Below, in pieces: positions 8,847 through 54,013 of a DNA stretch of 64,000 bases (position 1 is the stretch's first letter; every line of letters begins with the position of its first letter). The stretch comes from Escherichia phage EdH4. Made by a program: the position numbers and the translations under genes. Location: the sequence record MK327930.1. One strand, written 5' to 3'. The notes below the pieces were generated by a model. The model saw only the letters and a program-made list of their open reading frames with translations. It was not told the DNA's origin and made no database searches.

Positions 8847-9092
8847 CTATTTCACAATGCCTACAAAACAGATCCCGCCTTCACCTATATAAGCAATATC
8901 GGTCACTTTATAACTTGTCAAGATCTGCTTATTTAGTTCATTAATAAAATCGGTCATTGCGTTGGTGTAGTTGTCTTCCGTGTCTAAGGCATAATCCCAG
9001 GTGTACACCTTTTTACGTCCGAAGCCTTTTACCATGATACGGGCGCTTTTGGTGTTGGTAGGGGCATAATATTTGGTGATTAGTGCTGCCAT
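8847..9092 (-). CDS. Hypothetical protein
   Basis: 81-aa ORF. Confidence 0.6.
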   Translation of the reverse strand: MAALITKYYAPTNTKSARIMVKGFGRKKVYTWDYALDTEDNYTNAMTDFINELNKQILTSYKVTDIAYIGEGGICFVGIVK

Positions 9093-38001: not shown

Positions 38002-38083
38002 AAGTAAGTGCTCCTATGTTAGTTTTCTTTCGAATGGGTGCACTATATTGTGGAGTTAGAGTAAAGTCAACACGTTTTTGATG

Positions 38084-38112
38084 TTGACATCTGTTGAGAC
38101 AATTGATACGAT
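38084..38112 (+). promoter_or_regulatory. Sigma70-like promoter TTGACA-N17-TACGAT for the plus-strand cluster
   Basis: The track's TTG/ATG start at 38078 lies inside this promoter. Confidence 0.5.
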
Positions 38113-38143
38113 TTCTTCACTTACAGAGCACGAGAGACGACTC

Positions 38144-39121: not shown

Positions 39122-39154
39122 TGACAGGGGCCAATGGCCCATTCTGGAGTTTTA

Positions 39155-40615
39155 ATGGATAGCAGAAGTTCAGAAATCATTGCCTCACAGAAAGATGATG
39201 CCCTGAGAATGTTGCAGGCTGCACGTATGTATCTCCTTGAAAAGCTGCCGTTTTATGGCACACTACTGTCAGGGTTGCAGTTCGTAGAAAACCACACATG
39301 GTGCTCCACCATGGCAACCGACCATAAACGCATCTACTACAGCCCTGAGTTCATTATGGGGTTGGCGGATGAGCGTAAAACCATTCTTAAAGCATCTCTG
39401 ACTGACAAGCAGTTTGAGATGGCTGAGGTTTTCTATTCCCCAAAATCTGTGAAAGAGGTGGCCTTTCTTCTGTCACATGAGGTGGGGCATATTATCTGTG
39501 ATCATCTGGTCCGTGGTAAAAGCTTTGAGCCGGAACTGTTCAATATTGCTTGTGATCACGTTATCAACACAGGTCTTGTGGTTGACTTTAGCAAGCCTCC
39601 TTGTGTTTTCTTCCCAAAGGGGAAAAGCACTGAGTTCGTAAAAGGTAAGCCTTTTGGCTTCTTAGCTAGTTGCTACTGCGACATGAAGTTTCATGGATGG
39701 ATTGCTGAGAACGTCTATGCAGTTCTTGATAAGCAAAGAGATCAGAATAACGGTAAAAGTAAGAGCGGCAAAGGTGAGAATTCTCAAGGAGATAAGCGAC
39801 AAACCGATGATCACATGAGCGGCAACGGTGGCACCAGCGATGATCTTGGAAAGGCTATGGGGTATGATCAGCCACAACCTGTAATCAGCCAATCTGATAA
39901 AGATCAGGCCATGCAGGACTCTGGTGATATGCTGGAGGCAGCAATGCAAGCGTCCGGAGGCCGTTGCCCTGAGGCGGTGCGTGAGTTTGTCAAGAACAGA
40001 GGTAAGCCTGTAATCAACTATATAGACATCATTAAGCAACGTATGTTGTCTAAAAGAAAGGCCGAACTGACCTACAGAAAACCTGGTCGCCGATCTGGGT
40101 CTTTGACCAGCACAATGCGAAAAGTTGGGGCTATAAACAAGAACCAGCACGTTATTGTTCCTGGTCGTAATCCGGAAAACACTATAGATATTGTGGTGGC
40201 TTTAGACGTTTCTGGCTCGATCTCTCAAAGAACTTTAAAGAAAATGTTCAATGAAATCACCGGATTGTGCAATCTGTATAAAGAGTTTAAGGTTACAATG
40301 TTCTGTTGGTCAACTGAGGTTGGAGAGGTTAAAGTATACACTCGCGGCAACATAGACGAGATGGTCAACTATGAGGTCCACTCAACATGGGGCACAACAG
40401 CTGCTTGCGTGTTCGAGTATCTGGATGCCAACATACCTAATGCAAAAGATGTCATCGTCCTGACCGACCTATACTTTGAGCATAACTTTGAACAAAAGGT
40501 TGTTGACAACAAGTGGAAAAAGTACGATACTCTATGGGTCCTCACTGAGGGGTATAATAAAAATTATATCCCGAGCTTTGGGAAAACTGTGGAATTAATC
40601 GAGTACGCTAAGTAA
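39155..40615 (+). CDS. Zinc metallopeptidase-like plus von Willebrand factor A domain protein
   Basis: HExxH in LLSHEVGHIICDH; VWA MIDAS motif VVALDVSGS; start trimmed to the ATG with a GGAG RBS. Confidence 0.7.
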   Translation: MDSRSSEIIASQKDDALRMLQAARMYLLEKLPFYGTLLSGLQFVENHTWCSTMATDHKRIYYSPEFIMGLADERKTILKASLTDKQFEMAEVFYSPKSVKEVAFLLSHEVGHIICDHLVRGKSFEPELFNIACDHVINTGLVVDFSKPPCVFFPKGKSTEFVKGKPFGFLASCYCDMKFHGWIAENVYAVLDKQRDQNNGKSKSGKGENSQGDKRQTDDHMSGNGGTSDDLGKAMGYDQPQPVISQSDKDQAMQDSGDMLEAAMQASGGRCPEAVREFVKNRGKPVINYIDIIKQRMLSKRKAELTYRKPGRRSGSLTSTMRKVGAINKNQHVIVPGRNPENTIDIVVALDVSGSISQRTLKKMFNEITGLCNLYKEFKVTMFCWSTEVGEVKVYTRGNIDEMVNYEVHSTWGTTAACVFEYLDANIPNAKDVIVLTDLYFEHNFEQKVVDNKWKKYDTLWVLTEGYNKNYIPSFGKTVELIEYAK

Positions 40616-40630
40616 GAGAGGAGGTTATTT

Positions 40631-40894
40631 ATGGCAACAGAGTTAAAATTTGCATCAAACCGTAAAACTAAGAAGTATCTGTCCTCAGTAGCTCCAGGCA
40701 CTGTGGTGATGTTTGTTGATGAACTTGGGGATGTGAATACAGCACTTGTTGTAAAATCACATCCTGCAAACATATATGTTGGGGTATTTGACCTGTTCAG
40801 AAAGGTGTTTGTAGAACTGCCTCACAGTTTGGTTGTTACAGAAATGGATGCCTGCATAGAAATTCTTGGCGAAGTTATGGTGGAGGAACAATAA
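40631..40894 (+). CDS. Small protein, tandem paralogue family 3 (member 1 of 4)
   Basis: 87 aa; shares the pattern K..F..G.VV...D...V.K.....VF.L..........VTE.D..I.ILGE with the next three genes. Confidence 0.6.
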   Translation: MATELKFASNRKTKKYLSSVAPGTVVMFVDELGDVNTALVVKSHPANIYVGVFDLFRKVFVELPHSLVVTEMDACIEILGEVMVEEQ

Positions 40895-41157
40895 TGGCTA
40901 CCAGCATTGTATTCAATTCTAAGGTGAAGAACAAAAAGCGTGCAGACAGTTTTCCGTGTGGGACCGTGGTAAGTTGCGACGGAGACGGCATTCAAAACAT
41001 AGTTATGATTGTCAAAACAGGAGAACATTGTGTGTGGGGGTTCGATTTAGAAAATAATGAGTTGTACGATCTGCCGCCAAACATGAAAGTTACAGAGCTT
41101 GACACCAAAATTACCATCCTTGGAGAGACAAGCTATTCAAAAGAAGGAGGAGAATAA
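40894..41157 (+). CDS. Small protein, tandem paralogue family 3 (member 2)
   Basis: 87 aa; TAATG overlap with the previous gene. Confidence 0.6.
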   Translation: MATSIVFNSKVKNKKRADSFPCGTVVSCDGDGIQNIVMIVKTGEHCVWGFDLENNELYDLPPNMKVTELDTKITILGETSYSKEGGE

Positions 41158-41420
41158 TGACCACAAAAATCACTATCGCAGAACCGAAAGCTAACACTCA
41201 GCCTATCGAAAAGTTTAAGTGCGGTGAGGTGGTAACATTCACACCAGATAATGAAGATGCTAAGATTTTCGCAATGGTCACAGCTGAGTGGATGTGTGAC
41301 AACACCACACAGGTTCTGCGTTTTGACACCTACCTTACAGATGAAATCAGGAACGATAAGATCGTGACTGGTGTAGATACTGAAATTATTTTCTACAAGA
41401 GCTTTTTAGAGGGTTTCTAA
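41157..41420 (+). CDS. Small protein, tandem paralogue family 3 (member 3)
   Basis: 87 aa; TAATG overlap with the previous gene. Confidence 0.6.
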   Translation: MTTKITIAEPKANTQPIEKFKCGEVVTFTPDNEDAKIFAMVTAEWMCDNTTQVLRFDTYLTDEIRNDKIVTGVDTEIIFYKSFLEGF

Positions 41421-41421
41421 T

Positions 41422-41658
41422 ATGGCGAAAATTCGTAAATTATCCAACAATCAGGTTGTTAAAGATTTTGAACCCGGGGAGATTCTGTATGTTCGTGATG
41501 CAGATGACGAAGGAGAAGATCTTGTTATGCTGCTAGGACACGCTGCTGAGGACGGATGCATCCAGGCTGTTTTTCTTGAAACAGCTATGGTGCACTGGAT
41601 AGAGCTGGACATGAAAGCACGAAAACCTAAAGCAGAAATCCTGATTTACGAAGATTAA
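41422..41658 (+). CDS. Small protein, tandem paralogue family 3 (member 4, divergent)
   Basis: 78 aa; conserved FEPGEILYV...VFLETAMVHWIELD. Confidence 0.55.
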   Translation: MAKIRKLSNNQVVKDFEPGEILYVRDADDEGEDLVMLLGHAAEDGCIQAVFLETAMVHWIELDMKARKPKAEILIYED

Positions 41659-41674
41659 CAAAAAGGAGAGAGCC

Positions 41675-42124
41675 GTGTTGAGCAAACGTGAATGCGACAG
41701 CATTAGCCTGAATTCTTATAAGAAACAATGGTTTGGGGTAGAAGTTTGCCGACTGCGGCTAGGCTCCTACCTGAACTTCGTTTATTACGAGAGCGACAGT
41801 CGTATCGTTTCTTATGAAGTGTTCTACACTAAGAACACATTCGAACTGCGCCGTAAAGTAGAGGGAGGGAGAACTACCACCCAGAATAATTGGGAAACTA
41901 TTCTGCCTCCAGATGTTATAGGAAGTCCCCTGAATGTATCTGAAGATGAAAATCTTATGGTTCATGCTATGATGGGACTTGACAGCTTAGAGCTGGCGAT
42001 CTATGATATGTCCATCGAAGCAGTTAAGCTGGACTACATCGAAAACACTTTAGAGGAAGGTATCAAGAAGTTTCTCAGTGAGAAATTAAAAGATCACTTT
42101 CATAAGGAGCTATACCTGTTATGA
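41675..42124 (+). CDS. Hypothetical protein
   Basis: GTG start with an AGGAGAG RBS; 149 aa. Confidence 0.55.
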   Translation: MLSKRECDSISLNSYKKQWFGVEVCRLRLGSYLNFVYYESDSRIVSYEVFYTKNTFELRRKVEGGRTTTQNNWETILPPDVIGSPLNVSEDENLMVHAMMGLDSLELAIYDMSIEAVKLDYIENTLEEGIKKFLSEKLKDHFHKELYLL

Positions 42125-42366
42125 AGACCCGTAAAGAACGTAACAAAATTTTACCTGGAGCTCTCGAACACCTGATGAAGTGCAGATCTATTTGGCACTC
42201 TGCCAAGGAAGGGCAGAAGGTGGTTGTGGTTAGTGACAATACCAACCCGTTTGGAGATTATACCACCATGATGGCCCCATATGTCCGTGATGGCGTTGTA
42301 GAAGTGGTCCCTTACAACGGTTTGCATGAACGGCACTTTGAAAGCACTTTGCTAGTGGAGCTATAG
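42121..42366 (+). CDS. Hypothetical protein
   Basis: 81-aa ORF, overlapping stop/start. Confidence 0.5.
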   Translation: MKTRKERNKILPGALEHLMKCRSIWHSAKEGQKVVVVSDNTNPFGDYTTMMAPYVRDGVVEVVPYNGLHERHFESTLLVEL

Positions 42367-42368
42367 TC

Positions 42369-42935
42369 ATGGCGGTCAATGTGGCTTACAACACAGGAAA
42401 GCTTGACAGAGACATTGGGTGTCTTGTCCTTTCAGATACAGAAGAGTATTGGGGTTATGGGTTGCTGTCAGACCCACACCCGAGCAACCTTGTATCAACA
42501 GTGCTATACCGCTACGACCCTGTGCCAACGGTACACGACAAAGACATTCACGACCTTCGGATCAAGTGTCTGGAAGATCTGCTGAACAATGGTTGCAACG
42601 ATCTGCGGGTAGCCAAGGAGAAGCTTACAAACATTCACAAAGAGGAAGTGATGAGTACCCTCAGTAAAAGATCAGTGCACAAAAAGATGATGCTGATCTT
42701 TGCAATGGGTATCTACATGGATGGGTATAAGGGAGGGGATCCGATCCTCAAGCTTCGCTGCCCGACACTGTGGGAAAGAGTGGTTGACAGTAAGGACGGG
42801 ACTGCCCTGCTCGAACTCCACACTGCAGGTTGGATTTGGCGGTATGTAGACGGATACCCTCTGTGGGCATGTGGACCTGGGGAATTTGTTGACAGACCTA
42901 GCGCGGTGGTGGACTTACTATTGCAGTTTGAATAA
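42369..42935 (+). CDS. Hypothetical protein
   Basis: 188-aa ORF. Confidence 0.55.
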   Translation: MAVNVAYNTGKLDRDIGCLVLSDTEEYWGYGLLSDPHPSNLVSTVLYRYDPVPTVHDKDIHDLRIKCLEDLLNNGCNDLRVAKEKLTNIHKEEVMSTLSKRSVHKKMMLIFAMGIYMDGYKGGDPILKLRCPTLWERVVDSKDGTALLELHTAGWIWRYVDGYPLWACGPGEFVDRPSAVVDLLLQFE

Positions 42936-42992
42936 AAAGGTGAGTTATAAGGTATTCATACACCTACCAACAATACAACAGGAGAGACTAAG

Positions 42993-43268
42993 ATGACGAA
43001 AGAAGAGGCCGACGTATTAGATTTTGCACTAGAGGCTACGCAGGAGGCTTTGGTGTTAGCTTGGAAAATGAACCAGCGTGCTGCAGAATGCAACCGCCGC
43101 ATCAATGAGATCTTGGGCATGTCTATGTATGATTTCACCATGCATGCAGGAGAGATTCCTGAATTAACTGCCGAGATGAATGATCTTGACGATAAAATTA
43201 ATATCATTCTGAAGACAGCAGAAACAACTCACCAAACCGCCCGTAAATTTATCAACGAGAAGGTGTGA
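42993..43268 (+). CDS. Hypothetical protein
   Basis: 91-aa ORF. Confidence 0.5.
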   Translation: MTKEEADVLDFALEATQEALVLAWKMNQRAAECNRRINEILGMSMYDFTMHAGEIPELTAEMNDLDDKINIILKTAETTHQTARKFINEKV

Positions 43269-43735
43269 ATATGGACTACAGCTACTGCGGGGAAGAAGTC
43301 CCTTTTAATTACAGCAATCTTACCACGAGCAATCCATATGAGACTCGCCACGGCACGCACATCATTGCCATCGACTTTGATGGAACGTTTAATGCGAGCC
43401 CTTTCATCTTCTCCAGCCTGATCAGGGATCTGAAGAAGGAGGGGTGGACAGTCTACCTTGTGACTTTCCGATTCATTACTCAAGACAATGTAGACATTGA
43501 GTATTGGCGCAAGGAGCTCGATGTTGGTGTGTTCTACACAGGTGGTGTTCAGAAGGCAGCCTACCTGGCGCAGTTTGATATCTACCCAGATATCTGGGTT
43601 GATGATTCTCCGGCATGTATTCCGGCTAAGAATCAGTTAGAGTTTGCAATGAAGGAGATTGAGTATAAGTCTGAGGCTAAGCGGAACGGATGGCCCTTTA
43701 TTATTGAAGATTACCCAGATCCTGAACCGGAGTAA
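43265..43735 (+). CDS. HAD-superfamily phosphatase (5'-nucleotidase-like)
   Basis: HAD motif I IIAIDFDGTF; motif IV-like VDDSP. Confidence 0.6.
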   Translation: MNMDYSYCGEEVPFNYSNLTTSNPYETRHGTHIIAIDFDGTFNASPFIFSSLIRDLKKEGWTVYLVTFRFITQDNVDIEYWRKELDVGVFYTGGVQKAAYLAQFDIYPDIWVDDSPACIPAKNQLEFAMKEIEYKSEAKRNGWPFIIEDYPDPEPE

Positions 43736-43740
43736 GAGCC

Positions 43741-43911
43741 ATGAGGCGAAGATATCATTACCTGATGTGGAAGTTATATCAAAATGCTGCCAAAGCCTAT
43801 CATATCATGTTTGGCAATGACGATCACTACATCATGTTACATCTCACCGCTATTGAGCATCACAATGAGTGGATTCATGCAATCGTGGCAGGTGATAAAG
43901 ACTTTAAGTAA
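43741..43911 (+). CDS. Hypothetical 56-aa protein (below ORF-track cutoff)
   Basis: GGAG RBS then ATG; MRRRYHYLMWKLYQNAAKAYHIMFG... Confidence 0.35.
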   Translation: MRRRYHYLMWKLYQNAAKAYHIMFGNDDHYIMLHLTAIEHHNEWIHAIVAGDKDFK

Positions 43912-43961
43912 AGTATACCTCAAAAACGTATAGTGCGGCTTTCTAGACGGAGACTGATTAA

Positions 43962-44342
43962 ATGTGCAAGTGTAAATCCTATAATTGGAAAGTGAAAGGT
44001 GCCAAGCATCCAAATGTTATCGTTGATGTGCCTAAAAATCTTCGTGACGGCAAAAAACGTGTGTGCCTTGATAAGTGTATGGCTAAGCCTATCATGAGTT
44101 TGTGGGCAGCAGGTTTGAAAACGCTAAACTGCTGCTGTGGTCATAACAAAGATATTCCAAGCATCATTATCCCAGAAGATGCAGATCCTAAAGCTTATGC
44201 CAAAATACTGACCCGCTATCCCAGCACCTTCCTGATCGGAAAATGGTGTCACGATGAACTCCAATGGTGGATAGCCTATGGTAGTATAGGCACTACTTTT
44301 GGCTTCCCAGCTTTGTCAGAGCGCTATGTCAAAGTGTCATAA
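43962..44342 (+). CDS. Cys-rich protein
   Basis: 126 aa; CKCK...CLDKC...CCCGH; followed by hairpin aggcctcaaacgaggcct. Confidence 0.55.
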   Translation: MCKCKSYNWKVKGAKHPNVIVDVPKNLRDGKKRVCLDKCMAKPIMSLWAAGLKTLNCCCGHNKDIPSIIIPEDADPKAYAKILTRYPSTFLIGKWCHDELQWWIAYGSIGTTFGFPALSERYVKVS

Positions 44343-44446
44343 TAGAATTTAAGGCCTCAAACGAGGCCTGTGCCTTCATAAATTTCTCCACCCTGTGCGA
44401 TTGCCTTCCTGAATAAAATACCCTCTCAGATCTCTTAAAATTAAGC

Positions 44447-44475
44447 TTGACACCACCACCAGATCTATATATAAT
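44447..44475 (+). promoter_or_regulatory. Sigma70 consensus promoter TTGACA-N17-TATAAT
   Basis: Perfect -35 and -10; the track's TTG start at 44447 is the -35 hexamer. Confidence 0.6.
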
Positions 44476-44503
44476 TCTCACCAACCAAACAGAGGAGATC
44501 GTC

Positions 44504-44911
44504 ATGGATAATCTTGCAGATGTAAATGTCGAAATTGTTAAACTAAAGTTCTTGGGCTTTCGAGACCCTTATTCTTTAACAGCCATACTAATGGATACTC
44601 ACTTCACACCAGGTAAAGAGTACACTGCCTTCCGTTATATTTGCGGAGATCACGAATCAGCTTACAGTGTGAATACAAACCTCGGCGAGGGATATTTCAT
44701 CAGAGATATCACAGATCACTTGTGGGGTATGTGGGAGTTGGTGGAGGAAGAGAATAAATCCCTTCCTAAAGAGATTTGGGTGCACACCTTCCACACAGGT
44801 AAGTTTGGAGGTACGGAACATAAGTCTATCCACTATGATGAAGAAAGTGCCATCAAACAACAAGCTGTGCTTGGTGGATCTATAGAAAAATTTGTTAAAT
44901 GCGAGGACTGA
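44504..44911 (+). CDS. Hypothetical protein (start moved to the ATG with an AGAGGAG RBS)
   Basis: MDNLADVNVEIVKLKF...; 135 aa. Confidence 0.55.
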   Translation: MDNLADVNVEIVKLKFLGFRDPYSLTAILMDTHFTPGKEYTAFRYICGDHESAYSVNTNLGEGYFIRDITDHLWGMWELVEEENKSLPKEIWVHTFHTGKFGGTEHKSIHYDEESAIKQQAVLGGSIEKFVKCED

Positions 44912-44914
44912 GAA

Positions 44915-45115
44915 ATGGCTGATTTTTGTAAAGATTGCTCTGAAGAGTTGTTTGGCTTTGACTGCAAAGATTTGGAAGGTCTGATCACTGAGGATCAGTG
45001 GAAGGAAGGCTATGCAGCACCTGTTATTTGTGAAGGTTGTGGCTATACCTATGTTGACCATAAAGGTAAGCGCGTCAAGCCGTCTGAAGATGGGGCATGT
45101 TGGGAGTATTACTAA
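44915..45115 (+). CDS. Small zinc-ribbon protein
   Basis: CKDC...CEGCG...C; 66 aa. Confidence 0.5.
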   Translation: MADFCKDCSEELFGFDCKDLEGLITEDQWKEGYAAPVICEGCGYTYVDHKGKRVKPSEDGACWEYY

Positions 45116-45117
45116 CT

Positions 45118-45150
45118 ATAAAAAGAAAGGGGCCGTTTGGCCCCTTTTTA
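45118..45150. terminator. Bidirectional rho-independent terminator between convergent gene blocks
   Basis: aaaagaaaggggccgtttggcccctttttattt: hairpin flanked by an A-run and a T-run. Confidence 0.75.
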
Positions 45151-45162
45151 TTTACCCCCTTG

Positions 45163-48100
45163 TTAACGAGAAAAGGTTGCGTAGGCTTCTAGACGATACT
45201 GCTGGTCACCAGGGAACATAACACCTATAGAGGCTGTCCCTAGAATCCTGCCTTCCTTTCCAGACTCCATTCTGAACCCTACCCATCCTGAACTCCTTGC
45301 AGCCTCGATGTTGTCGCTATACCCGAAAGTGGCAAGATCGTCAACACCAGCCCCAAACAGCAACTGAAGCTGACTTCTCGGAAGCCCTATAATTTCAGGA
45401 ATATACGCACCAAAGTACACCATCTGCCCTACCTTAGGACCGCTGCCGTACTCCATCGGTTTGCTTGTAGAGAAAGTCTTCATACCAGAAGTACCTGCCG
45501 GATTAGGGTATGCCCCGTTTGTTGCTGTACCTATCCACATTCTCCACTGTGGTGCCATCTGTTTGACAGTAAAAGATGTTGAAGACGTTTTGCGCCCTGC
45601 ATCATCAGTAACTACAAACTTTATGGTGACATTCCCAGTAGCTTTAAATGTTACCAGCCCTGTGGCAGCATCCACTGTTGCAATGTTGGTATTACTACTT
45701 TCCCAAGTCTTTCTAATACCGGATACGTTGGAAGGGGTAATAGAAGGTTCCTGCATCTGCAGTTTACCACCCACAATCCCTATGCCGTTACCTGGATTAT
45801 ACAGCACACCAACCTCGTCTACAATGTTCCCTGCTTTGAGACTATACTTCCTTGAGAAGTTGTAGGTTCCGTTATAAGTGTGTGTCCCTGAGAAGGTGAC
45901 ATCTGCCTTCCCGTAAGAGATGCAAACCAAAGCATACTTCCTGTCAGGCAACGTTTCTCCAGTCTCTGGGTGAGTTTTACCTACCTGGAACACACTCGGG
46001 TCAGTAGAGTCGTGACTATCACTAACGGCGCTTGGACCGCCCATCAACTGTGACAAACAATTCCTTACCCATGTCCAGTTATTATCGCTGGAGAAGTCCA
46101 CAGTCAAATCAAACACAACCCACTCATTTGGCTTCCACACAGGTGTTGTAATGGACTTGCCTACACCACCTCCTTGGAGTGTTGCCGACTGTTCAGTGAT
46201 CAGGGCCGCATAGGCCAGAGTTCCTAAACTCAGAGTCTGGCTTGCTGTCCTCACTACCTTAGAATCAGCATCTGTGAAGTTGTTGATGATTTGGAATGTG
46301 CCATAAGTGTTTTTACAGGTAATTCTGGCGTTCAGTGTGTCAATCTTCCTCACATCTGCCATAGCAGTGTTAGACACAGAGAAGTCAGAAGCTTTAGCTG
46401 AGTTTGCCGCAACAGCAGGATCAACGTTAAGAGTTGCGTTGAACTGACAGGCAGGGGTAACCAGCAGCTTGTTATCACCTATTTGCTTCCATGAAATACT
46501 TTGGACAGGTAGATTCCATTTAATACCTGAGAAAACTTTAGCAACCCTTGGCCCCAAAGCTCCAGTCCTGTTGTCTTTACAGCACATAGACATAGTGATC
46601 GTTGACGGAGTTGCCTGACCGAACAATTCCTGTGCTTTTGCAGAGGACATAGTGTAGAAATTGTCCTTAACAAACTCATCAGCGGCTAAAGATCCGTCAG
46701 CCCTCCACCACTGCACCTGGTACCCGGTCTTATCCCAGCCACCGACCTGCTTCAGGTCTTCCCAGGAGATTTCCAGATCCCCAGTGGTAGGGTTGATTGC
46801 AGCAGCTCCTGGTGTTCCAGAGGACCATAATGGGATATCGAACCACGCTGGTTTAGCAGACTGCACTGCACTAGGCCCTATTGCAGCAGCAAGTTGCTGG
46901 CCCATCAATACACGAGCATCTTTCACCAGACCCCACTCGATCATGGACCCGGAGTAACCTTCTTTCTTGTAGGCTGAGGATCCGTTCAAATGGATGAGTC
47001 GGCTTGTGCCAAAGTTATATGCTCCACCACCGTTGTCGTCTGCAAAATTGTATATAACCCTATCTCTGATATCTTTCCATGCTCTACCGCCAATCTCGTA
47101 GTCATGGTCATAACATCTTTGCAATGTTGTCCAGCAAATGATCGCCATCCTTCTGCCGTCACTAAAGCCAAAGGCCTGATCGTTAAGCTCTCTCCACAAG
47201 TAGCAGTTAGTGGTCCACATAGCTCTGTGAATGTTGAACCAATTTATAGACCTGGCTGCATTGTTGTAGGCGGTGCCTTCTAGCGTAGGCCACACTGCAT
47301 TAACCAGCATATCCTCTGTCCCTGCGTCTATCAGGAATCCTCTCACTTTCTTACCCATTCCTATCCTATCCTTGGCAATCCATGAGCCGAACAATTTCAG
47401 TTTAGGACCGATTACGGCATCCTCTGGATGCTCAAGAGAGACATACTTCAAGTATACTGTAGGATCACCGTAGGTGCCATCACAAACAGCTTTGTGCATG
47501 TTTTCACCAAGGTCCAGACGGATACCTGTGAGAGTTTTGGTATCATCTGTGAACTTATCTGTCAAATCAAACTCGTACCACCACCACCCGGCTCCAAGTA
47601 AAACTTTCTTACAGCGCTTGGAGTCTGTGTCGGAGATTCTTTTATCCCCTGCATATGGTGAGTCTGCAAACTGGTAGTGCAGAGCAACTTCAAAAGGATG
47701 TGTGGATGTTCCGTTTTCTGCAAGAACTTGCTTCCCGATCAGATCGCATTTAATAATCATCACGACACGTCTGTATCCATTGGCAACTGGAACGTCGAAC
47801 GGATACCTCGCACCATCCATATTCGCATGCAAAGCTGCGAAATTTATGTATGGGTCAACAGCGTTACCTAAAGTTTCAGGCCCTGGGATCATCTTGTACT
47901 TCTTGACCTGTCCCATAATATAGTCGCTGCCGTAGGTTGCAGCCTCGAAGCAAGAGCCGCTGTCAGGCAGTTCAGCAGGCCCCCAAAAGTATGCTCCGTA
48001 ACAATTATAGAACCATTTGTTAGGGTCGTAGTTATTCTTGAAGGTCTGAACCTCGTTGGCCTGTTTTGTCAAGAAAACCTGCGTATCTGTAAAGATTGCA

Positions 48101-50799
48101 GGATTTACCCTTGCCTGACGCGGAGGGTAACCTGTAGTTTGGTTAAACCACAAATTACAAGAGTAATCCCTCATATAGTCATAATCAGAGTATTTGTTTG
48201 CATCCTCGTTCCAACACATGTTCAGGTTGGTACCGCCCATGCATACAATATATTCTGCGACATACTTATCACTTCTGGTAGGAATACCTATGAACCATCT
48301 GTTAACAGGTTCATCCCAAGCTGTGCGCTCATCTTTAACGCAGATAGCAATCCAGTCATGTGTTCCTGTTTTCTTGCACACATCCCGCTTCATACCATAG
48401 TAGAACTCTTTAGTATTCGGCTCAGGTGCATTTATCAGGTAACTCCATGCCTGATTTGCATAAGTTCCATTGGTGCGTGGATCATGATCAAAGGCATACA
48501 TGATGATCCTTTCCCCACCAAGATGTTCGCCAAGAGTAACTTTGACATTCACATCGCCGTAACCATTGCGAACAACATCCATATTGTCAATAGATATACC
48601 TCTGGGAGTGTAGGCAATCTTCAGTGAGTTATCCTCACTAGTGCCACCAAGTGTAATCCCTATGTTGTTTGTTGTCCCATCGGCATATCTTACTGTAGCT
48701 TCCCAGCGTATTCCGAAATATCCTACATCATGGCTGACAATTTTCAGTGTACGAGCGCCAGGGTGAGGTTTTCCAGGATCAGGCCAAGGGTCTGGGTGTT
48801 CGTGGACAGTCAACGACGTTCCGTTTTGCTCGTTAACCTGCAACATTTTACCACCTCTGCCGTTAGGGTTGAACTCCCATACGGCCTGTGTCTGCACCAA
48901 GTTGTTGTAGGTATTTCGTCTCTGATCATAAATCTCTTGGGTAACATCATAAGTGACTGATCCAGCATCCATTCTGTGGAGTCGGACCATATACGATGTA
49001 TCCCCTTCTACTGCAGGCTGAGTCCCATTCAGTCCGAAGTATACAGTATCGTTAACATGGAACTGCTTGTTTCTACCAACGGTATGCCACTTGCCGTTGG
49101 ACGGATACGCAGGAACTATGGTGTTCCAGTTCAAAGTCCTTGTTGTGTGAGTTCTGCCTGTGCCATGCTTGTCATGATAGGTTATTTTTACAGAGTACAG
49201 GCCACGTCTGTTAACATTTCTGTTATACTGGGTAACAACAACTTCATTGGCCCCGCCGTGGTTCCAGTTGGTGGAGAATTGGTAATTTGCATCTGTAACA
49301 ACCGTACCTGCAGCATTCACCAGTTCAATCTTGTCAATGATGAACGTAGCTCCCTCTGGCTGAGGCTTCAATTTCATCTTGACCGTGTCACCAATGTAGA
49401 TATTGCTAACACTGCTAACACCATTAACGTCGAAAATATCATCAACGCCCCAACTGTCTACTGGGACATTTTTATACCAATTCTCAGGAACCTCTGTGAA
49501 CCCCTGACTATTAAGTCTGCCGCCAAACAGGTTATTAGAGCCTGTAAAACTTCCCCTTGGGATACCTGACCACCAAAGTTTACCATTAACAACAGTAAAG
49601 GTCCCTAAGAAACCTTCTCTGTGGATGCCTTGGAAATAAACACTCTCTGTCCAGCTGACTGGCAGGCGTTGCTCAACATATTTAGCTGTAGCAAGAGCTT
49701 GATAGTGGATAAAATCGGCCCTAGGACTATTGTTTGCAGATTGTGCACCAATATCATTACATAAGTTGCGAGAGAACCCACGATACTGCTTAGTGCCATT
49801 ATTGAAGAAAATGCCACTTGTGCCGTACCCACGAGCCATCATTACCTCATGGGTGTAGGTGATATTCAGTTCCCGCCATGTATCATCTCCCCAAATGTTT
49901 TGACCATAAAATACGTTAACAAGCTGCTGGTCATCGGGTCTATGCATCCTCTGTGTAGCAATTACTGCCCCGTTAGGACCACACATAAACCCTTTCCACT
50001 CCTCATCTGCAGGAATGCCCCTCAAATCGTTACGAGTAATCTGCACAGGAGGCCAAACAAGGTCGTTTCTACTGTTATTTCTCAGAAAGTCGTATCCAGC
50101 AATCCAGAAACCCCTAGGACCACCGAAAATAACAGAGTTGTCATGCACCTCACAGTTGATGCTTGGGTTTTTCCAAGGGCCTGTTTCAGGATCTTCCGAT
50201 GTCTCACCAATCTTTACAGGGGTTGCATGCTGATTTTTATCTACATGCAAAGATCCGTAGGTGTTGTTACCAGATCCATACAGGTTAAGTATGCCAGCAC
50301 CTTCTGCCTCTGCAATAACCCAGACAGTGTTGTTAATACCGCCCATCACCTCAATAAGGCGTTCTGGGTGGGTGTCAAGGTGCAATCCTTTAACAATCTG
50401 CTCTGGGAGTGGTGTCCACTCGTTTACGCAAACATCATTACCGCCTGCCGCAGTGGATCCGATAAGACCTGCAGTGCAGCCGATGTAGAAAAACTGGTTA
50501 TCAAAAGTCCGGATCACAAACGCGCGGTCTGCTCTCCACACATGATCAACATTCCAGGCTGTTTCGCTCGGATAGTTTATAGGGCTACGATCCCCAGTGC
50601 GGCACTCTCCGAACTTGTTATAGCCAGTAATATTAAGCTGACCATCATCAAAAAGTATAGCTAAGCTATTTACATAGGATACTGTGTTGCTTGTACCATC
50701 ACTGTTGTCTATTGGGTATGACAGAACAGCAAGTTCCTTAATTCCACCCCTCTTATCGAGGAAATGACGACCAAGTTTTAGCAAAGGGATTGGAAGCAT
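45163..50799 (-). CDS. Very large tail fibre or host-range protein with C-terminal Ig-like (BIG2-type) domain
   Basis: 1878 aa; C-terminal NVSGIRKTWESSNTNIATVDAATGLVTFKATGNVTIKFVVTDDAGRKTSSTSFTV resembles a bacterial Ig-like fold; last gene of the tail module. Confidence 0.6.
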   Translation of the reverse strand: MLPIPLLKLGRHFLDKRGGIKELAVLSYPIDNSDGTSNTVSYVNSLAILFDDGQLNITGYNKFGECRTGDRSPINYPSETAWNVDHVWRADRAFVIRTFDNQFFYIGCTAGLIGSTAAGGNDVCVNEWTPLPEQIVKGLHLDTHPERLIEVMGGINNTVWVIAEAEGAGILNLYGSGNNTYGSLHVDKNQHATPVKIGETSEDPETGPWKNPSINCEVHDNSVIFGGPRGFWIAGYDFLRNNSRNDLVWPPVQITRNDLRGIPADEEWKGFMCGPNGAVIATQRMHRPDDQQLVNVFYGQNIWGDDTWRELNITYTHEVMMARGYGTSGIFFNNGTKQYRGFSRNLCNDIGAQSANNSPRADFIHYQALATAKYVEQRLPVSWTESVYFQGIHREGFLGTFTVVNGKLWWSGIPRGSFTGSNNLFGGRLNSQGFTEVPENWYKNVPVDSWGVDDIFDVNGVSSVSNIYIGDTVKMKLKPQPEGATFIIDKIELVNAAGTVVTDANYQFSTNWNHGGANEVVVTQYNRNVNRRGLYSVKITYHDKHGTGRTHTTRTLNWNTIVPAYPSNGKWHTVGRNKQFHVNDTVYFGLNGTQPAVEGDTSYMVRLHRMDAGSVTYDVTQEIYDQRRNTYNNLVQTQAVWEFNPNGRGGKMLQVNEQNGTSLTVHEHPDPWPDPGKPHPGARTLKIVSHDVGYFGIRWEATVRYADGTTNNIGITLGGTSEDNSLKIAYTPRGISIDNMDVVRNGYGDVNVKVTLGEHLGGERIIMYAFDHDPRTNGTYANQAWSYLINAPEPNTKEFYYGMKRDVCKKTGTHDWIAICVKDERTAWDEPVNRWFIGIPTRSDKYVAEYIVCMGGTNLNMCWNEDANKYSDYDYMRDYSCNLWFNQTTGYPPRQARVNPAIFTDTQVFLTKQANEVQTFKNNYDPNKWFYNCYGAYFWGPAELPDSGSCFEAATYGSDYIMGQVKKYKMIPGPETLGNAVDPYINFAALHANMDGARYPFDVPVANGYRRVVMIIKCDLIGKQVLAENGTSTHPFEVALHYQFADSPYAGDKRISDTDSKRCKKVLLGAGWWWYEFDLTDKFTDDTKTLTGIRLDLGENMHKAVCDGTYGDPTVYLKYVSLEHPEDAVIGPKLKLFGSWIAKDRIGMGKKVRGFLIDAGTEDMLVNAVWPTLEGTAYNNAARSINWFNIHRAMWTTNCYLWRELNDQAFGFSDGRRMAIICWTTLQRCYDHDYEIGGRAWKDIRDRVIYNFADDNGGGAYNFGTSRLIHLNGSSAYKKEGYSGSMIEWGLVKDARVLMGQQLAAAIGPSAVQSAKPAWFDIPLWSSGTPGAAAINPTTGDLEISWEDLKQVGGWDKTGYQVQWWRADGSLAADEFVKDNFYTMSSAKAQELFGQATPSTITMSMCCKDNRTGALGPRVAKVFSGIKWNLPVQSISWKQIGDNKLLVTPACQFNATLNVDPAVAANSAKASDFSVSNTAMADVRKIDTLNARITCKNTYGTFQIINNFTDADSKVVRTASQTLSLGTLAYAALITEQSATLQGGGVGKSITTPVWKPNEWVVFDLTVDFSSDNNWTWVRNCLSQLMGGPSAVSDSHDSTDPSVFQVGKTHPETGETLPDRKYALVCISYGKADVTFSGTHTYNGTYNFSRKYSLKAGNIVDEVGVLYNPGNGIGIVGGKLQMQEPSITPSNVSGIRKTWESSNTNIATVDAATGLVTFKATGNVTIKFVVTDDAGRKTSSTSFTVKQMAPQWRMWIGTATNGAYPNPAGTSGMKTFSTSKPMEYGSGPKVGQMVYFGAYIPEIIGLPRSQLQLLFGAGVDDLATFGYSDNIEAARSSGWVGFRMESGKEGRILGTASIGVMFPGDQQYRLEAYATFSR

Positions 50800-50810
50800 T
50801 GTGTTCTCCA

Positions 50811-50840
50811 GATAAGAAAACCGCCCCGTCAGGAGCGGTT
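50811..50840 (-). terminator. Putative terminator between the 581-aa fibre gene and the 1878-aa gene
   Basis: aaccgc-N10-gcggtt hairpin followed by T-rich sequence on minus. Confidence 0.45.
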
Positions 50841-50847
50841 AGATATA

Positions 50848-52593
50848 TTAACGTTGTGCAATTACTACGTCTACGATATCACCAACACCACAATACGTTA
50901 ATTGCAGCAAGGTAACACTGTTAGCCTTGTTGTTAATAACAGGTGTTGCCGACAGGATAGCATACTTATCGTGCAAAGTCACGTTGTGACCTACAGCATC
51001 CTGAATTACATAGATAACCGCAGTGAATGGATAAGGTTTATCTTCCGCTGATGTCCCAGGCCACTGCCCTATTGTAAAATCCCCTTTAGCGTGGACAACA
51101 TACATACTGGCCTGCCCGTTAGGTGTCCATGTCCCACTGGACGCGTCAACCTCCTCTAAATCGAAATCTACCTTCCCTGCGTGGAAAGTAGGGGCAGTGA
51201 TGGTTTTACCAGCCTCAATTTCTTGAGAGGTGGTTATCTTACCACTGGAGTTAATGCCATTACAAACAAAGTTGACATTAGAGAAGTCTGGCAGCCACCC
51301 GGTCACTGTGCCGGATATTTCAAGATTGTGAAGGTGGGTGGTGCCAGTCCCTGCGGCGTTTAAACTAACATCTCCATTTACCTGCAAGTTTCTGGTAATG
51401 TTGCAGTTTTCAGAGTTTGCAGTTGTTGCAGTTAAAGTGGTGGTGGTCAGCTCGGTAATTGTACCTCTATTGGCTGTAAGCCCTTCTCCTTCAAAAGTTG
51501 CACGCTCATTGACTCTTAGAGTATTCAGAGCTATATTTTGGATAGAGGCTGTACCTCGAATAACTACAGACCCGCCAACCTCCAAATCGCCATTTATCAA
51601 TGCATCACCCGTGCTTTCAATATAGCTAGGGTAGATCATGGTGCCATCGACAGAGTATGTTATCCCTGTAACGGTACCTGTCACCTCAAGGTTCTTAACC
51701 CTGGTGGTCCCATCGACCTGCAATGTCGGTTCGGTTGCTGCCTTCATGGCATTACCACGAATGTACACGTAGTCAAAAAAGTTATTACCTAGACCATCAA
51801 AATGCACATCGTTATTATTAGCCACTGGTTTCCCAGAAGTTATAGTGTCAGCTATAATCCTGTGGGTGGACACTTCATGAGGTTGCAGCTCTGTGCTTCT
51901 CCAGTCTGCATGCTTAGGATCGCTCCACGCAAAAGTAAGTGTAGAAGTATTTGCCGTGAGGATTAGATTCCTGAAGCGTGCAGTAGAATCTGCTCCATTA
52001 ACAGGCCCATGTAAGGTGAGGGTGCCACCGACTATGGTGTTAGCGAGTTCTGTAAGACCTTTTACCACCAAAGACCCTACAGTAACTTTCATCCCCTCCA
52101 TGGCTTTAAATATACTATCAACATAGTCAACAACAAACTCTGTGTTTGCTATGGACTCTGACTTATCGTCCATTGGAGGTGTAGGTACTCGCGGGTCACC
52201 TTCGAACCTCGGGCTGTTAAGTTTTGCGTAGTATTTTGCCATTACTGCAGAGTCGGTATATAATCTCCAGTTTGGAGATTGTGAAGGATCTGCTGGCATT
52301 CTAACCGGGTTAGATTTTGATGCTGCGGGAGCGTACCACCACTGAGGACCTGTATCCCCCTTAAACTCATACAGCTGGTTAAAAACTGTTGTGGATGCAC
52401 CATACGCCCAAGGGATCGGTGGCGTTTTAAAATAAAGGGTGTCAAGCATGGCTTTTCGTACCGTAGGGATGGTGGTCCCATCCTCTACGACAACTTCATC
52501 CACAGCGTTACCGTTGACAATCAGGTGCAAACGTTCAGAATCAACAATTACTTGATCTACCGCCTGCTCAAAGCTTGTCATGTCTTGCGCCAT
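50848..52593 (-). CDS. Tail fibre protein with beta-helix-like repeats
   Basis: 581 aa; Thr/Gly/Asn-rich repeats (TLQVDGTTRVKNLEVTGTVTGITYSVDG...). Confidence 0.6.
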   Translation of the reverse strand: MAQDMTSFEQAVDQVIVDSERLHLIVNGNAVDEVVVEDGTTIPTVRKAMLDTLYFKTPPIPWAYGASTTVFNQLYEFKGDTGPQWWYAPAASKSNPVRMPADPSQSPNWRLYTDSAVMAKYYAKLNSPRFEGDPRVPTPPMDDKSESIANTEFVVDYVDSIFKAMEGMKVTVGSLVVKGLTELANTIVGGTLTLHGPVNGADSTARFRNLILTANTSTLTFAWSDPKHADWRSTELQPHEVSTHRIIADTITSGKPVANNNDVHFDGLGNNFFDYVYIRGNAMKAATEPTLQVDGTTRVKNLEVTGTVTGITYSVDGTMIYPSYIESTGDALINGDLEVGGSVVIRGTASIQNIALNTLRVNERATFEGEGLTANRGTITELTTTTLTATTANSENCNITRNLQVNGDVSLNAAGTGTTHLHNLEISGTVTGWLPDFSNVNFVCNGINSSGKITTSQEIEAGKTITAPTFHAGKVDFDLEEVDASSGTWTPNGQASMYVVHAKGDFTIGQWPGTSAEDKPYPFTAVIYVIQDAVGHNVTLHDKYAILSATPVINNKANSVTLLQLTYCGVGDIVDVVIAQR

Positions 52594-53927: not shown

Positions 53928-54013
53928 GTTCTCCTGAGAAAATTCCTTAGGACTATTTTAACACTTTAGGGAACAAAATGCAAGAACGGAGTCCTTTCCG
54001 TTCTGACCTTTGT

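What the first reader, a model, noticed from the sequence alone, without database searches (positions are those of the whole stretch)
45163..50799. 1878-aa terminal fibre protein with Ig-like domain and large unassigned regions
The last gene of the tail operon, bracketed by terminators, encodes an unusually large protein. Its C-terminal segment resembles a BIG2-type Ig-like domain, and the remaining roughly 1700 residues have no family I can assign. Proteins of this size at fibre loci often carry enzymatic depolymerase or adhesin modules that determine host range.
Basis: partly seen in the sequence, partly recalled or inferred. Interest (0 to 1): 0.45.

Follow-up and report, generated by a model that had tools for sequence, protein, structure and literature searches.

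The report
Giant rV5-type phage tail-module adhesin
This is the intact copy of a known but uncharacterised 1878-residue gene of rV5-like E. coli phages (rV5 gp27). It reads as an optional surface-binding accessory protein with a propeller-shaped front end, antibody-like domains and a ~1000-residue core found nowhere else, not as a classical tail fibre or sugar-cutting enzyme.

Summary
The ORF is real: minus strand 45163..50799, 1878 aa. It is 92-95% nucleotide-identical, and up to 97% protein-identical, to the same gene in over 100 Vequintavirus genomes. These include rV5 gp27 and BASEL bas48_0041/bas54_0041, annotated 'lateral tail fiber protein with intimin domain'. It is the last gene of the tail-fibre module and sits between two terminator hairpins. 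Big_2 is confirmed at aa 1682-1733.

New here:
- Residues ~1-440 are an RCC1-like seven-bladed propeller. Much shorter 'tail proteins' (564-891 aa) at the same genomic position in Seunavirus and Phapecoctavirus share it.
- Residues ~441-640 look like degenerate Ig-like domains.
- A profile of residues 441-1440 found no relative outside this gene family among 1.84 billion representatives of about 15 billion proteins. The region is nevertheless under strong purifying selection (dN/dS 0.03-0.13).
- No depolymerase, beta-helix, coiled-coil or fibre-chaperone signature was found.

Published data show weak detection in rV5 virions and tolerance of transposon disruption on E. coli K-12.

Best reading (about 0.5): a low-copy, dispensable, tail-associated adhesin expressed by terminator read-through. 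The gene is already known; its function is not. Interest is modest.

The parts
45163..50799 (-). Complete ORF of 1878 aa plus stop codon; orthologue of rV5 gp27, bas48_0041 and bas54_0041; PHROG 15684
   Evidence: ORF; 92-95% nt identity over 100% of the gene in 107 records; phrog_15684 matched 1-1878; orthologue annotations
49480..50799 (-). aa 1-440: invariant N-terminal peptide (M-x-P-I-P) followed by an RCC1-like seven-bladed beta-propeller; the most conserved part of the protein and the proposed virion-docking module
   Evidence: Same-position homologues hit Pfam RCC1 and the RCC1-like domain. hhalign of A1 against SKA64 gives 99.6% probability over aa 1-491. The family profile A5 matches HERC1/HERC2/UVR8 RCC1-like domains in the PDB at 3e-19 to 3e-14. 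The AF2 model (pLDDT 49, pTM 0.60) returns 45 RCC1-like propellers in its first 47 Foldseek PDB hits. This protein alone gives no Pfam RCC1 hit.
48880..49479 (-). aa ~441-640: probable degenerate Ig-like beta-sandwich domains, corresponding to the two Big_2 domains that end the short homologues (boundaries approximate)
   Evidence: hhalign of A1 against GAP31 aligns aa 395-621 with 352-533 (E 6e-4, probability 28%). The SKA64 alignment runs to aa 491. P0003 has a weak Bact_surface_Ig-like hit at aa 506-558. This is weak evidence.
46480..48879 (-). aa 641-1440: conserved, Trp/Cys/Tyr-rich core with no detectable relative outside this gene family; contains the internal variability hot spot at aa ~900-1260
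   Evidence: A profile of aa 441-1440 searched against 1.84 billion representatives gave only 3 hits, all from the same family or fragments of it. There are no Pfam, NCBIfam or PDB hits. dN/dS is 0.05-0.13. Identity profile. The AF2 model was not usable.
45799..46479 (-). aa 1441-1667: the segment most diverged between the two clades of the family; possibly a second, degenerate Big_2-like domain at aa ~1586-1639
   Evidence: Column identity is 0.22-0.29 against 0.5-0.8 elsewhere. hhalign self-match of the Big_2 block to aa 1586-1639 has E 0.087. phrog_215 coverage begins at aa 1593.
45550..45798 (-). aa 1668-1750: Big_2 bacterial Ig-like domain (Pfam match aa 1682-1733 = window 45601-45756); this short match is the source of the 'intimin' label in some annotations
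   Evidence: PF02368, 35.3 bits, cut-off 22.8; intimin matched only over ~40-50 aa; NCBIfam 22 bits against a cut-off of 1400
45166..45549 (-). aa 1751-1878: C-terminal domain of unknown fold that exists in at least two alleles among Vequintavirus genomes; candidate distal ligand-binding tip
   Evidence: Identical to Bas48 but dN 0.27 against Bas54, with saturated dS. tblastn identity classes for the last 288 aa are about 95-99% (72 records, including the >=99% band) and about 78-82% (about 39 records). Identity profile. Covered by phrog_215.
50810..50840 (-). Terminator-like hairpin AACCGCTCC-TGAC-GGGGCGGTT plus a T-rich tail, filling the gap between the 581-aa fibre gene and this gene; proposed leaky terminator that limits expression
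   Evidence: -17.8 kcal/mol for the 71-nt segment, which also includes a small second helix. It is rV5 t028. A hairpin with an unrelated stem sequence occupies the same position in four lineages.
50805..50809 (-). GGAGA ribosome-binding site, 5 nt upstream of the ATG
   Evidence: read directly from the sequence
45117..45147 (-). Terminator hairpin AAAGGGGCC-AAAC-GGCCCCTTT plus T-run after the stop codon; it lies between convergent transcription units and is probably bidirectional
   Evidence: rV5 t027 (minus strand) and t026 (plus strand)
53954..53963 (-). Nearest upstream exact match to the rV5 late-promoter core (TGTTAAAATA), ahead of the 348-aa short-tail-fibre gene; inferred start of the transcript that must read through the hairpin to reach this gene
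   Evidence: exact match; none in the 50800-50847 gap; rV5 P030. This is inference, not shown.

Best explanation
The gene encodes a low-copy, non-essential, virion-associated accessory adhesin of the tail module. It is not one of the classical trimeric fibres.

Anatomy (shown). It has an invariant N-terminal peptide followed by an RCC1-like seven-bladed propeller (aa ~1-440). Next come probable degenerate Ig-like domains (aa ~441-640). A lineage-specific core of about 800-1000 aa has no relatives anywhere else. Then follow a diverged segment, one Big_2 Ig-like domain and a 128-aa C-terminal domain that occurs in at least two alleles.

The short ancestral form, a propeller plus two Big_2 domains (564-567 aa), occupies the same last-gene position in Seunavirus. 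An 891-aa form does so in Phapecoctavirus. The rV5 lineage extended it by about 1200 residues.

Mechanism (inferred). The conserved N-terminal peptide and propeller dock the protein on the baseplate or fibre network shared by these genera. The rest projects outward. The variable C-terminal domain, the Ig-like domains and the variable patch at aa ~900-1260 make weak, probably glycan-directed contacts with cell surfaces, which helps adsorption on some hosts or in some environments. The protein is not needed on E. coli K-12.

Expression (inferred). Transcription depends on read-through of a conserved terminator hairpin immediately upstream, which keeps the copy number low.
For: Identity and conservation:
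- The ORF is intact.
- Over 100 orthologues exist.
- dN/dS is 0.03-0.13 in every segment.

Position:
- It is the last gene of the fibre module in Vequintavirus, in a divergent metagenomic relative, and in Seunavirus and Phapecoctavirus.

N-terminal propeller:
- Homologues hit Pfam RCC1 at 23.7-36.1 bits (cut-off 21.7) and the RCC1-like domain at 1e-8 to 7e-11.
- hhalign gives 99.6% probability over aa 1-491.
- The family profile matches PDB RCC1-like domains at 3e-19.
- Foldseek hits to the AF2 model are almost all RCC1-like propellers.
- M1, P3, I4 and P5 are invariant across the four lineages in the five-sequence alignment A4.

Adhesin-type content:
- Big_2 is present and the short homologues carry two Big_2 domains.

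Variability where a binding surface would be expected:
- The C-terminal domain has at least two alleles, and aa ~900-1260 is a hot spot.

Dispensability:
- bas54_0041 is the orthologue and tolerated disruptive transposon insertions on K-12 (preprint 10.1101/2025.11.20.689424).
- The gene is split in phages naswa and V18.

Virion presence and low abundance:
- rV5 gp27 gave 3 peptides, 9 spectra and 3.1% coverage (PMC3606486 Table S5).
- Cryo-EM of Bas49 and Bas54 resolved only three fibres out of nine annotated fibre proteins (PMC12143355).

Read-through expression:
- A hairpin plus T-run lies directly upstream in four lineages, each with a different stem sequence.
- There is no late-promoter motif in the 48-nt gap.
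Against: - Location on the virion, oligomeric state and any ligand are all untested.
- The rV5 mass-spectrometry evidence is weak. The three peptides have non-tryptic ends, two have poor preliminary-score ranks (9 and 14), and DeltCN is as low as 0.11.
- This protein alone does not reach any Pfam RCC1 threshold, and the AF2 propeller model has low confidence (pLDDT 49).
- About 1000 residues are structurally opaque and could hide an enzyme or a trimerisation module.
- The orientation could be the reverse. A Pseudomonas phage PollyC protein named for a T7-fibre-like N-terminal domain also matched the RCC1-like propeller model.
- Whether the hairpin terminates transcription, and how efficiently, has not been measured. 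One-mismatch late-promoter-like motifs exist inside the upstream gene.
Confidence: 0.5

Rival explanations
1. It is a canonical trimeric lateral tail fibre, one of the three fibre sets seen on rV5/phi92-type baseplates. It would be anchored by its N-terminus and bind a receptor with its C-terminal tip, as current BASEL annotations imply.
For: It sits at the end of the fibre module. It is annotated 'lateral tail fiber protein'. It has a conserved N-terminus and a C-terminus with allelic variation, the classical fibre pattern. BASEL lists the three largest fibre genes as allelically variable (PMC8594841). phi92 fibre II is still unassigned (PMC13450770).
Against: No fibre N-terminal anchor, coiled coil, beta-helix, internal repeats, Peptidase_S74 domain or adjacent chaperone was found. 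The N-terminus is a closed RCC1-like propeller. Its N-terminus resembles no other fibre-module protein of this phage. It is dispensable on K-12 and gave few spectra in virions. The shortest homologues are just a propeller plus two Ig domains.
Confidence: 0.15
2. It is a virion-borne polysaccharide depolymerase or other glycan-modifying enzyme. The unassigned core (aa ~641-1440) would be a catalytic domain too diverged for sequence methods, and the Ig-like and propeller domains would be carbohydrate-binding accessories.
For: The core is strongly conserved and rich in invariant Trp, Tyr, Glu and Asp residues, for example EDMLV (aa 1162-1166), NWFNxHRAMW (aa 1186-1195) and EGYxxSMIEWG (aa 1280-1290). 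It is under purifying selection. Neighbouring fibre genes in this module carry glycosidase or deacetylase annotations. Beta-propellers and Ig-like domains often flank glycoside hydrolases (general knowledge).
Against: No hydrolase, lyase or esterase family appears in Pfam, NCBIfam, PHROGs or PDB sequence searches at permissive thresholds. The exhaustive profile search found no relatives, whereas enzymes usually retain detectable superfamily signals. The catalytic reading of the motifs is my speculation only.
Confidence: 0.15
3. It is not a functional virion component. It could be a non-structural late protein acting inside or on the infected cell, for example the RCC1-like 'DNA condensation' type annotation or a superinfection or defence-related role. 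Alternatively it could be a gene drifting towards loss.
For: The mass-spectrometry evidence is weak. The gene is dispensable. It is split in several isolates. Phage RCC1-like proteins are often annotated 'DNA condensation protein'.
Against: dN/dS of about 0.1 along the whole 5.6 kb and an intact ORF in about 90% of genomes argue against decay. It is co-oriented with, and immediately follows, the fibre genes in four lineages. Big_2 domains are typical of exposed surface proteins. RCC1-like proteins were found in Septuagintavirus W70 virions (PMC11370258).
Confidence: 0.1

Closest known systems
rV5 gp27 and its Vequintavirus orthologues (PHROG 15684; BASEL bas48_0041 and bas54_0041, 'lateral tail fiber protein with intimin domain'; RefSeq 'Ig-like domain-containing protein')
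   Same: It is the same gene: 1876-1878 aa, 90-97% amino-acid identity, same position, same flanking terminators.
   Different: Nothing material. This copy carries the Murica/Bas48-type C-terminal allele rather than the Bas54 type. No function has been established for any member.
Seunavirus and Phapecoctavirus 'tail proteins' of PHROG 11922 (PVP-SE1 gp40, GAP31_232, FENT2 CDS0071, and the phAPEC8/SKA64 891-aa Ig-like protein)
   Same: They are homologous over the N-terminal ~440-490 aa (RCC1-like propeller, invariant MxPIP start). They hold the same last-gene position after a fibre gene, are preceded by the same kind of hairpin, and contain Big_2 domains.
   Different: They are 564-891 aa. After the propeller they carry two clear Big_2 domains, and the Seunavirus forms end there. 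The rV5-type protein continues for about 1200 residues that have no counterpart in them.
Cellular RCC1-like domain proteins (RCC1, HERC1/2 RLDs, UVR8, RPGR)
   Same: The seven-bladed propeller built from RCC1 repeats is shared. The family profile matches them at 3e-19 to 1e-4, and they make up almost all of the top Foldseek hits.
   Different: They have no functional relationship to phage particles. Identity is about 10-16%. The phage domain is fused to Ig-like and lineage-specific modules.
Ig-like-domain accessory proteins on phage particles (T4 Hoc; Ig-like domains appended to tail and capsid proteins, as surveyed by Fraser et al. 2006 - from my own knowledge)
   Same: They carry exposed bacterial-type Ig-like domains, are dispensable in the laboratory, and are proposed to bind surface carbohydrates weakly.
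   Different: Hoc is a small capsid decoration encoded in the head module. This protein is 1878 aa, is encoded in the tail-fibre module, starts with a propeller, and has only one clear Big_2 domain. No sequence relationship beyond the Ig fold was found.
Intimin/invasin family of bacterial adhesins
   Same: There is one Big_2-type Ig-like domain (about 40-50 aa aligned).
   Different: NCBIfam intimin scores 22 bits against a cut-off of 1400. There is no beta-barrel anchor, LysM domain or C-type-lectin tip. The 'intimin domain' label reflects the Ig fold only.

Membership tests
rV5 gp27 orthologue group (PHROG 15684) | Full-length, end-to-end match to the family profile and to named orthologues | tested here: met
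   phrog_15684 matched 1-1878 of 1878 at 4470 bits. Protein identity is 89.7-97.3% over 100% of the query to the full-length records listed, including Bas54 and the rV5_ev phages. rV5 gp27 is listed as 1878 aa.
rV5 gp27 orthologue group (PHROG 15684) | Conserved genomic position: last gene of the fibre module, after the 581-aa fibre gene, convergent with the next block | tested here: met
RCC1-like beta-propeller (Pfam PF00415 / PF25390) | Significant match of the protein itself to RCC1 repeat or RCC1-like-domain HMMs | tested here: not met
   No RCC1 family was reported for this protein at E up to 1. The 58%-identical relative P0003 reaches only E 3e-3 for PF25390.
RCC1-like beta-propeller (Pfam PF00415 / PF25390) | Homology, by profile, to proteins that do pass the RCC1 thresholds | tested here: met
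   hhalign against SKA64 gives 99.6% probability over aa 1-491. SKA64, GAP31, FENT2 and SF1-1 pass the PF00415 cut-off at 23.7-36.1 bits against 21.7. Profile A5, which includes this protein, hits the HERC1 RLD at 3.3e-19, UVR8 at 3e-14 and RCC1 at 1e-4.
RCC1-like beta-propeller (Pfam PF00415 / PF25390) | Seven-bladed propeller fold | tested here: inconclusive
   The AF2 model of aa 1-450 is all-beta with about seven four-strand groups, but confidence is low (pLDDT 49, pTM 0.60). Of the first 47 Foldseek PDB hits, 45 are RCC1-like propellers, with target-normalised TM-scores up to 0.55.
Big_2 bacterial Ig-like domain (PF02368) | Score above the Pfam gathering threshold | tested here: met
   35.3 bits against 22.8, aa 1682-1733
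Canonical trimeric phage tail fibre or tailspike | Recognisable fibre anchor, shaft or trimerisation elements (T4 gp10/12, T7 gp17 or P22-type N-terminus; coiled coil; triple beta-helix or beta-helix; Peptidase_S74 or a dedicated chaperone) | tested here: not met
   None was found in Pfam, NCBIfam, PHROG or PDB sequence searches. There are no internal repeats. No chaperone gene lies adjacent. Absence of detectable signal in the unassigned core is not proof of absence.
Canonical trimeric phage tail fibre or tailspike | Encoded within the tail-fibre gene module and present in virions | tested here: inconclusive
   The module position is met. Virion presence rests on three low-quality rV5 peptides.
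Canonical trimeric phage tail fibre or tailspike | Homotrimeric assembly | not testable with these tools
   No multimer prediction or experiment was available.
Phage polysaccharide depolymerase | Catalytic domain of a known hydrolase, lyase or esterase family (pectate-lyase-like beta-helix, GH, SGNH, sialidase and others) | tested here: not met
   There are no such hits at E up to 1, in PHROGs or in PDB sequence or profile searches.
Phage polysaccharide depolymerase | Glycan-degrading activity | not testable with these tools
   Requires an enzyme assay.
Intimin/invasin adhesins | Full-length architecture scoring above the NCBIfam cut-off | tested here: not met
   NF033627 scores 22 bits against a cut-off of 1400, aligned only over aa 1696-1734.

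The most novel reading that the evidence does not exclude
The conserved core (aa ~641-1440, possibly extending to aa 1667) has no detectable relative outside this gene family among about 15 billion predicted proteins, yet it evolves under strong purifying selection. It could be one or more new protein folds that arose within the rV5 lineage and carry a new activity. Candidates are a new glycan-binding module or an undescribed surface-glycan-modifying enzyme, which would give these broad-host-range phages an extra, conditionally used route through capsules, O-antigen or mucus.
Probability: 0.25. Interest if true: 0.6.

Novelty: already known. Interest (0 to 1): 0.3.

Why it matters
rV5-like phages are broad-host-range candidates for therapy and biocontrol. 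It is openly acknowledged that nobody knows which genes build which of their fibres (PMC8594841).

This largest gene of the module is probably not a classical fibre. It looks like an expanded member of an RCC1-propeller/Ig-like 'tail protein' family, so it should not be fitted into the three fibre densities. It becomes a specific target for knockout difference maps.

Its 1000-residue lineage-specific core is a compact test case for how phages build new surface modules. The conserved upstream hairpin suggests a simple way of setting the copy number of an accessory virion protein.

For annotation, 'intimin domain' and 'lateral tail fiber' are over-interpretations.

Tried and rejected
1. AF2 on aa 1-1000 with an 8-sequence alignment gave pLDDT 38. 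The model was unusable and was not sent to fold search.
2. A word-index homologue search with the full protein returned only 15 family members. With aa 1-450 alone it returned only 3 near-identical fragments. A profile that included the short homologues was needed to reach 11 diverse sequences.
3. The exhaustive HMMER profile search of aa 441-1440 returned nothing outside the family. A deeper alignment for the core is therefore impossible at present.
4. PDB sequence and profile searches with the whole protein returned only Ig-like noise.
5. Self-BLAST found no internal repeats. hhalign found only a weak second Big_2-like segment.
6. I checked a literature lead that 'LL12 gp27' resembles the phi92 gp150 N-terminus. 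By N-terminal sequence, the lead fits the neighbouring 581-aa fibre protein rather than this protein, so I dropped it.
7. The O177-phage 'proteomics' paper contains no virion mass spectrometry. The BASEL-completion, phiTE and RBPseg papers say nothing specific about this protein.
8. The intimin relationship is rejected.
9. Foreign origin is rejected. GC content is 0.45-0.48, similar to the surrounding genome.
Full report
**Observation.** The window carries an ATG-initiated ORF on the minus strand, 45163..50799, encoding 1878 aa. A GGAGA ribosome-binding site lies 5 nt upstream. It is the last minus-strand gene of a run of tail and baseplate genes, and the next genes converge on it from the plus strand.

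Two terminator-like hairpins flank it. One is at 50840-50819, filling most of the 48-nt gap to the preceding 581-aa fibre gene. The other is at 45147-45126. Pfam finds one domain, Big_2, at aa 1682-1733 (35.3 bits, cut-off 22.8). The observation as written is confirmed, with one correction: about 130 residues follow the Ig-like domain.

**What the locus is.** The window is from an rV5-like E. coli myophage (Vequintavirus).
- The gene is 92-95% nucleotide-identical over its whole length to 107 GenBank phage records.
- It is up to 97% protein-identical to them.
- It matches PHROG 15684 end to end.
- It is rV5 gp27 (1878 aa, 208 kDa, 'conserved hypothetical, Big_2'; PMC3606486 Table S3).
- It is also BASEL bas48_0041 and bas54_0041, annotated 'lateral tail fiber protein with intimin domain'.
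- The rV5 paper already listed the two flanking terminators as t028 and t027/t026.

The gene is therefore catalogued, but no function has been shown for any member.

**N-terminal module.** A direct scan gives nothing for aa 1-1680, apart from a PHROG 'tail protein' match at aa 41-197. tblastn shows that aa 1-197 are about 41% identical to the start of the last gene of the fibre module in Phapecoctavirus. The identity is about 30% in Seunavirus.

Those proteins are much shorter: 891 aa in SKA64, 786 aa in SF1-1, 567 aa in GAP31 and 564 aa in FENT2. They occupy the same position after a fibre gene. They pass the Pfam RCC1 repeat cut-off (23.7-36.1 bits against 21.7). They hit the RCC1-like domain family at 1e-8 to 7e-11, and they carry two Big_2 domains.

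Further support:
- hhalign of the gp27-family alignment against SKA64 gives 99.6% probability over aa 1-491.
- The alignment shows an invariant M-x-P-I-P start.
- A 17-sequence N-terminal profile that includes this protein hits the HERC1 RCC1-like domain at 3.3e-19, HERC2 at 2.8e-17, UVR8 at about 3e-14 and RCC1 at 1e-4 in the PDB.
- AF2 on aa 1-450 with that alignment gave an all-beta model of low confidence (pLDDT 49, pTM 0.60).
- Of the first 47 Foldseek PDB hits to this model, 45 are RCC1-like propellers.
- Its BFVD hits are fragments of the same gene, the short homologues and many phage RCC1-like proteins.

I conclude that aa ~1-440 form an RCC1-like seven-bladed propeller. The caveats are that the protein alone fails the Pfam test and that the model is weak.

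**Middle and C-terminus.** Residues ~441-640 align weakly with the Big_2 pair of the short homologues (hhalign E 6e-4), so they are probably degenerate Ig-like domains.

A profile of aa 441-1440 was searched with HMMER against 1.84 billion representatives of about 15 billion proteins. It returned three hits, all from the same family or fragments of it. The word-index search of 5.8 billion clusters found only 15 family members in total. The core is therefore truly lineage-specific. AF2 could not fold it (pLDDT 38 for aa 1-1000).

It is not junk. Nei-Gojobori dN/dS against Bas48 and Bas54 is 0.03-0.13 for every segment with measurable dS, apart from 0.21 for aa 1441-1680 against Bas54, where dS is only 0.04. 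This includes the core. dS swings from 0 to 1.4 between segments, which shows mosaic recombination.

Within Vequintavirus the variable patches are aa ~900-1260, a propeller segment at aa 241-300, and the C-terminal 128-140 residues. The C-terminal region exists in at least two alleles: it is identical to Bas48 here, with dN 0.27 against Bas54. Between the two clades of the family, aa 1441-1680 is the most diverged segment. A weak second Big_2-like segment lies at aa 1586-1639.

**What it is not.** No fibre anchor, coiled coil, beta-helix, Peptidase_S74 domain or depolymerase family appears in Pfam, NCBIfam, PHROG or PDB searches. There are no internal repeats. Its N-terminus resembles no other protein of the fibre module. 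The 'intimin' label comes from about 40-50 aligned residues of Ig fold, scoring 22 bits against a cut-off of 1400.

**Experimental context from the literature.**
- rV5 virion mass spectrometry lists gp27 with 3 peptides, 9 spectra and 3.1% coverage. The peptides have non-tryptic ends and two have poor ranks, so this is weak evidence.
- In the HIDEN-SEQ preprint, bas54_0041 is among the fibre genes that tolerated disruptive transposon insertions on K-12. Some fibre genes were conditionally essential on clinical isolates, but the text does not say which. I verified that bas54_0041 is the orthologue.
- Cryo-EM of Bas49 and Bas54 resolved three fibres out of nine annotated fibre proteins.
- In phage naswa the gene is split into two CDSs. 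In V18 it is split into four, with a deletion of about 1.1 kb.
- RCC1-like proteins were found in Septuagintavirus W70 virions.

**Regulation.** A GC-rich hairpin plus T-run sits directly between the preceding fibre gene and this gene's ribosome-binding site in four lineages: Vequintavirus, the divergent P0015 contig, Phapecoctavirus and Seunavirus. The stem sequences are unrelated, so the structure is conserved but the sequence is not. The 48-nt gap has no late-promoter motif. The nearest exact match, TGTTAAAATA, is at 53954-53963, ahead of the short-tail-fibre gene, and corresponds to rV5 P030. I infer that the gene is expressed by read-through of a leaky terminator, which would fit a low copy number. 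This step is inferred, not shown.

**Best explanation (about 0.5).** It is a low-copy, dispensable, tail-associated accessory adhesin. The N-terminal peptide and propeller dock to a structure shared by these genera. The Ig-like domains, the lineage-specific core and the allelic C-terminal domain project outward and make host- or environment-dependent surface contacts.

**Rivals.**
- A true trimeric lateral fibre (0.15).
- A cryptic depolymerase in the core (0.15).
- A non-structural or decaying gene (0.1).

The orientation, meaning which end binds the virion, is itself uncertain.

**Novelty and score.** The gene is already known and widely annotated. What this analysis adds:
- the domain-level reading (RCC1-like propeller, kinship with the short propeller-Ig 'tail proteins', a core with no relatives elsewhere);
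- the conserved upstream hairpin;
- the point that the 'fibre', 'intimin' and 'depolymerase' labels lack support.

Interest is 0.3. It would be higher only if the core proves to be a new fold with a new activity.

Noticed in passing
window 50810-50840 (-); L004 ~7972-7993; L003 ~8962-8981; L005 and L006 ~3961-3984: A terminator-like hairpin plus T-run lies directly upstream of this gene in four phage lineages, each with an unrelated stem sequence. The structure is conserved but the sequence is not, which suggests a conserved attenuator for the last gene of the fibre module.
   Followed up: partly
window 40631-41420 (+): Three head-to-tail ORFs of exactly 264 nt (87 aa each) at 40631-40894, 40894-41157 and 41157-41420. 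They are annotated as three hypothetical proteins in Bas48 and look like a tandem triplication.
   Followed up: no
GenBank MG0656xx records (hits H18-H23, H32, H34 and others): Fifteen or sixteen unannotated 'Campylobacter phage' records, with host given as Campylobacter jejuni, carry this E. coli Vequintavirus gene at 92-99% identity. The host label is probably wrong or the samples were contaminated.
   Followed up: no
P0018 (318 aa, NCBI 'hypothetical protein, partial [Eggerthella lenta]'): Over the stretch it shares with this coliphage protein (13% of the 450-aa N-terminal query), this protein is 98% identical. It sits on a 955-bp contig, so it is most likely coliphage contamination of a bacterial assembly.
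   Followed up: no
L008 (phage naswa) 301-5936; L009 (phage V18) 301-4863: The orthologous gene is annotated as two CDSs in naswa (788 and 1076 aa). In V18 it is four CDSs with about 1.1 kb missing. Fragments from the ime, ECP26 and APECc02 phages appear in BFVD. Whether these are real disruptions or sequencing errors was not determined.
   Followed up: partly
window 50848-52593 (-), the 581-aa upstream fibre gene: By eye, its N-terminus (MAQDMTSFEQAVDQVIVDSERLHLIVNG...) resembles the N-terminus of the Phapecoctavirus colanic-acid-degrading tailspike (SKA64, 1017 aa). Its homologue in contig L004 carries the Pfam families Phage_phiTE_241_N and Phage_phiTE_241_C. This suggests a shared anchor domain with swapped distal parts.
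   Followed up: no
window ~38000-45100: A plus-strand block of small genes interrupts the minus-strand late and replication genes. The GC skew flips sign exactly there, to +0.11 to +0.15 against about -0.1 elsewhere. It includes a 493-aa ORF (39134-40615) that is annotated as a putative metallopeptidase (DUF2201-type) in relatives.
   Followed up: no
window 34319-35503 (-): This 394-aa ORF corresponds by position to the MoxR-type ATPase bas48_0063. The HIDEN-SEQ preprint reports the Bas54 orthologue bas54_0063 as required to overcome a predicted defence system, DS-28.
   Followed up: no
precomputed Pfam column for P0001 and P0021-P0028: Pfam family PF26918 is listed both for the 94%-identical orthologue of this protein and for the short Seunavirus-type homologues. 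It was not reported by the Pfam scans run here, so I could not establish which segment it covers.
   Followed up: no
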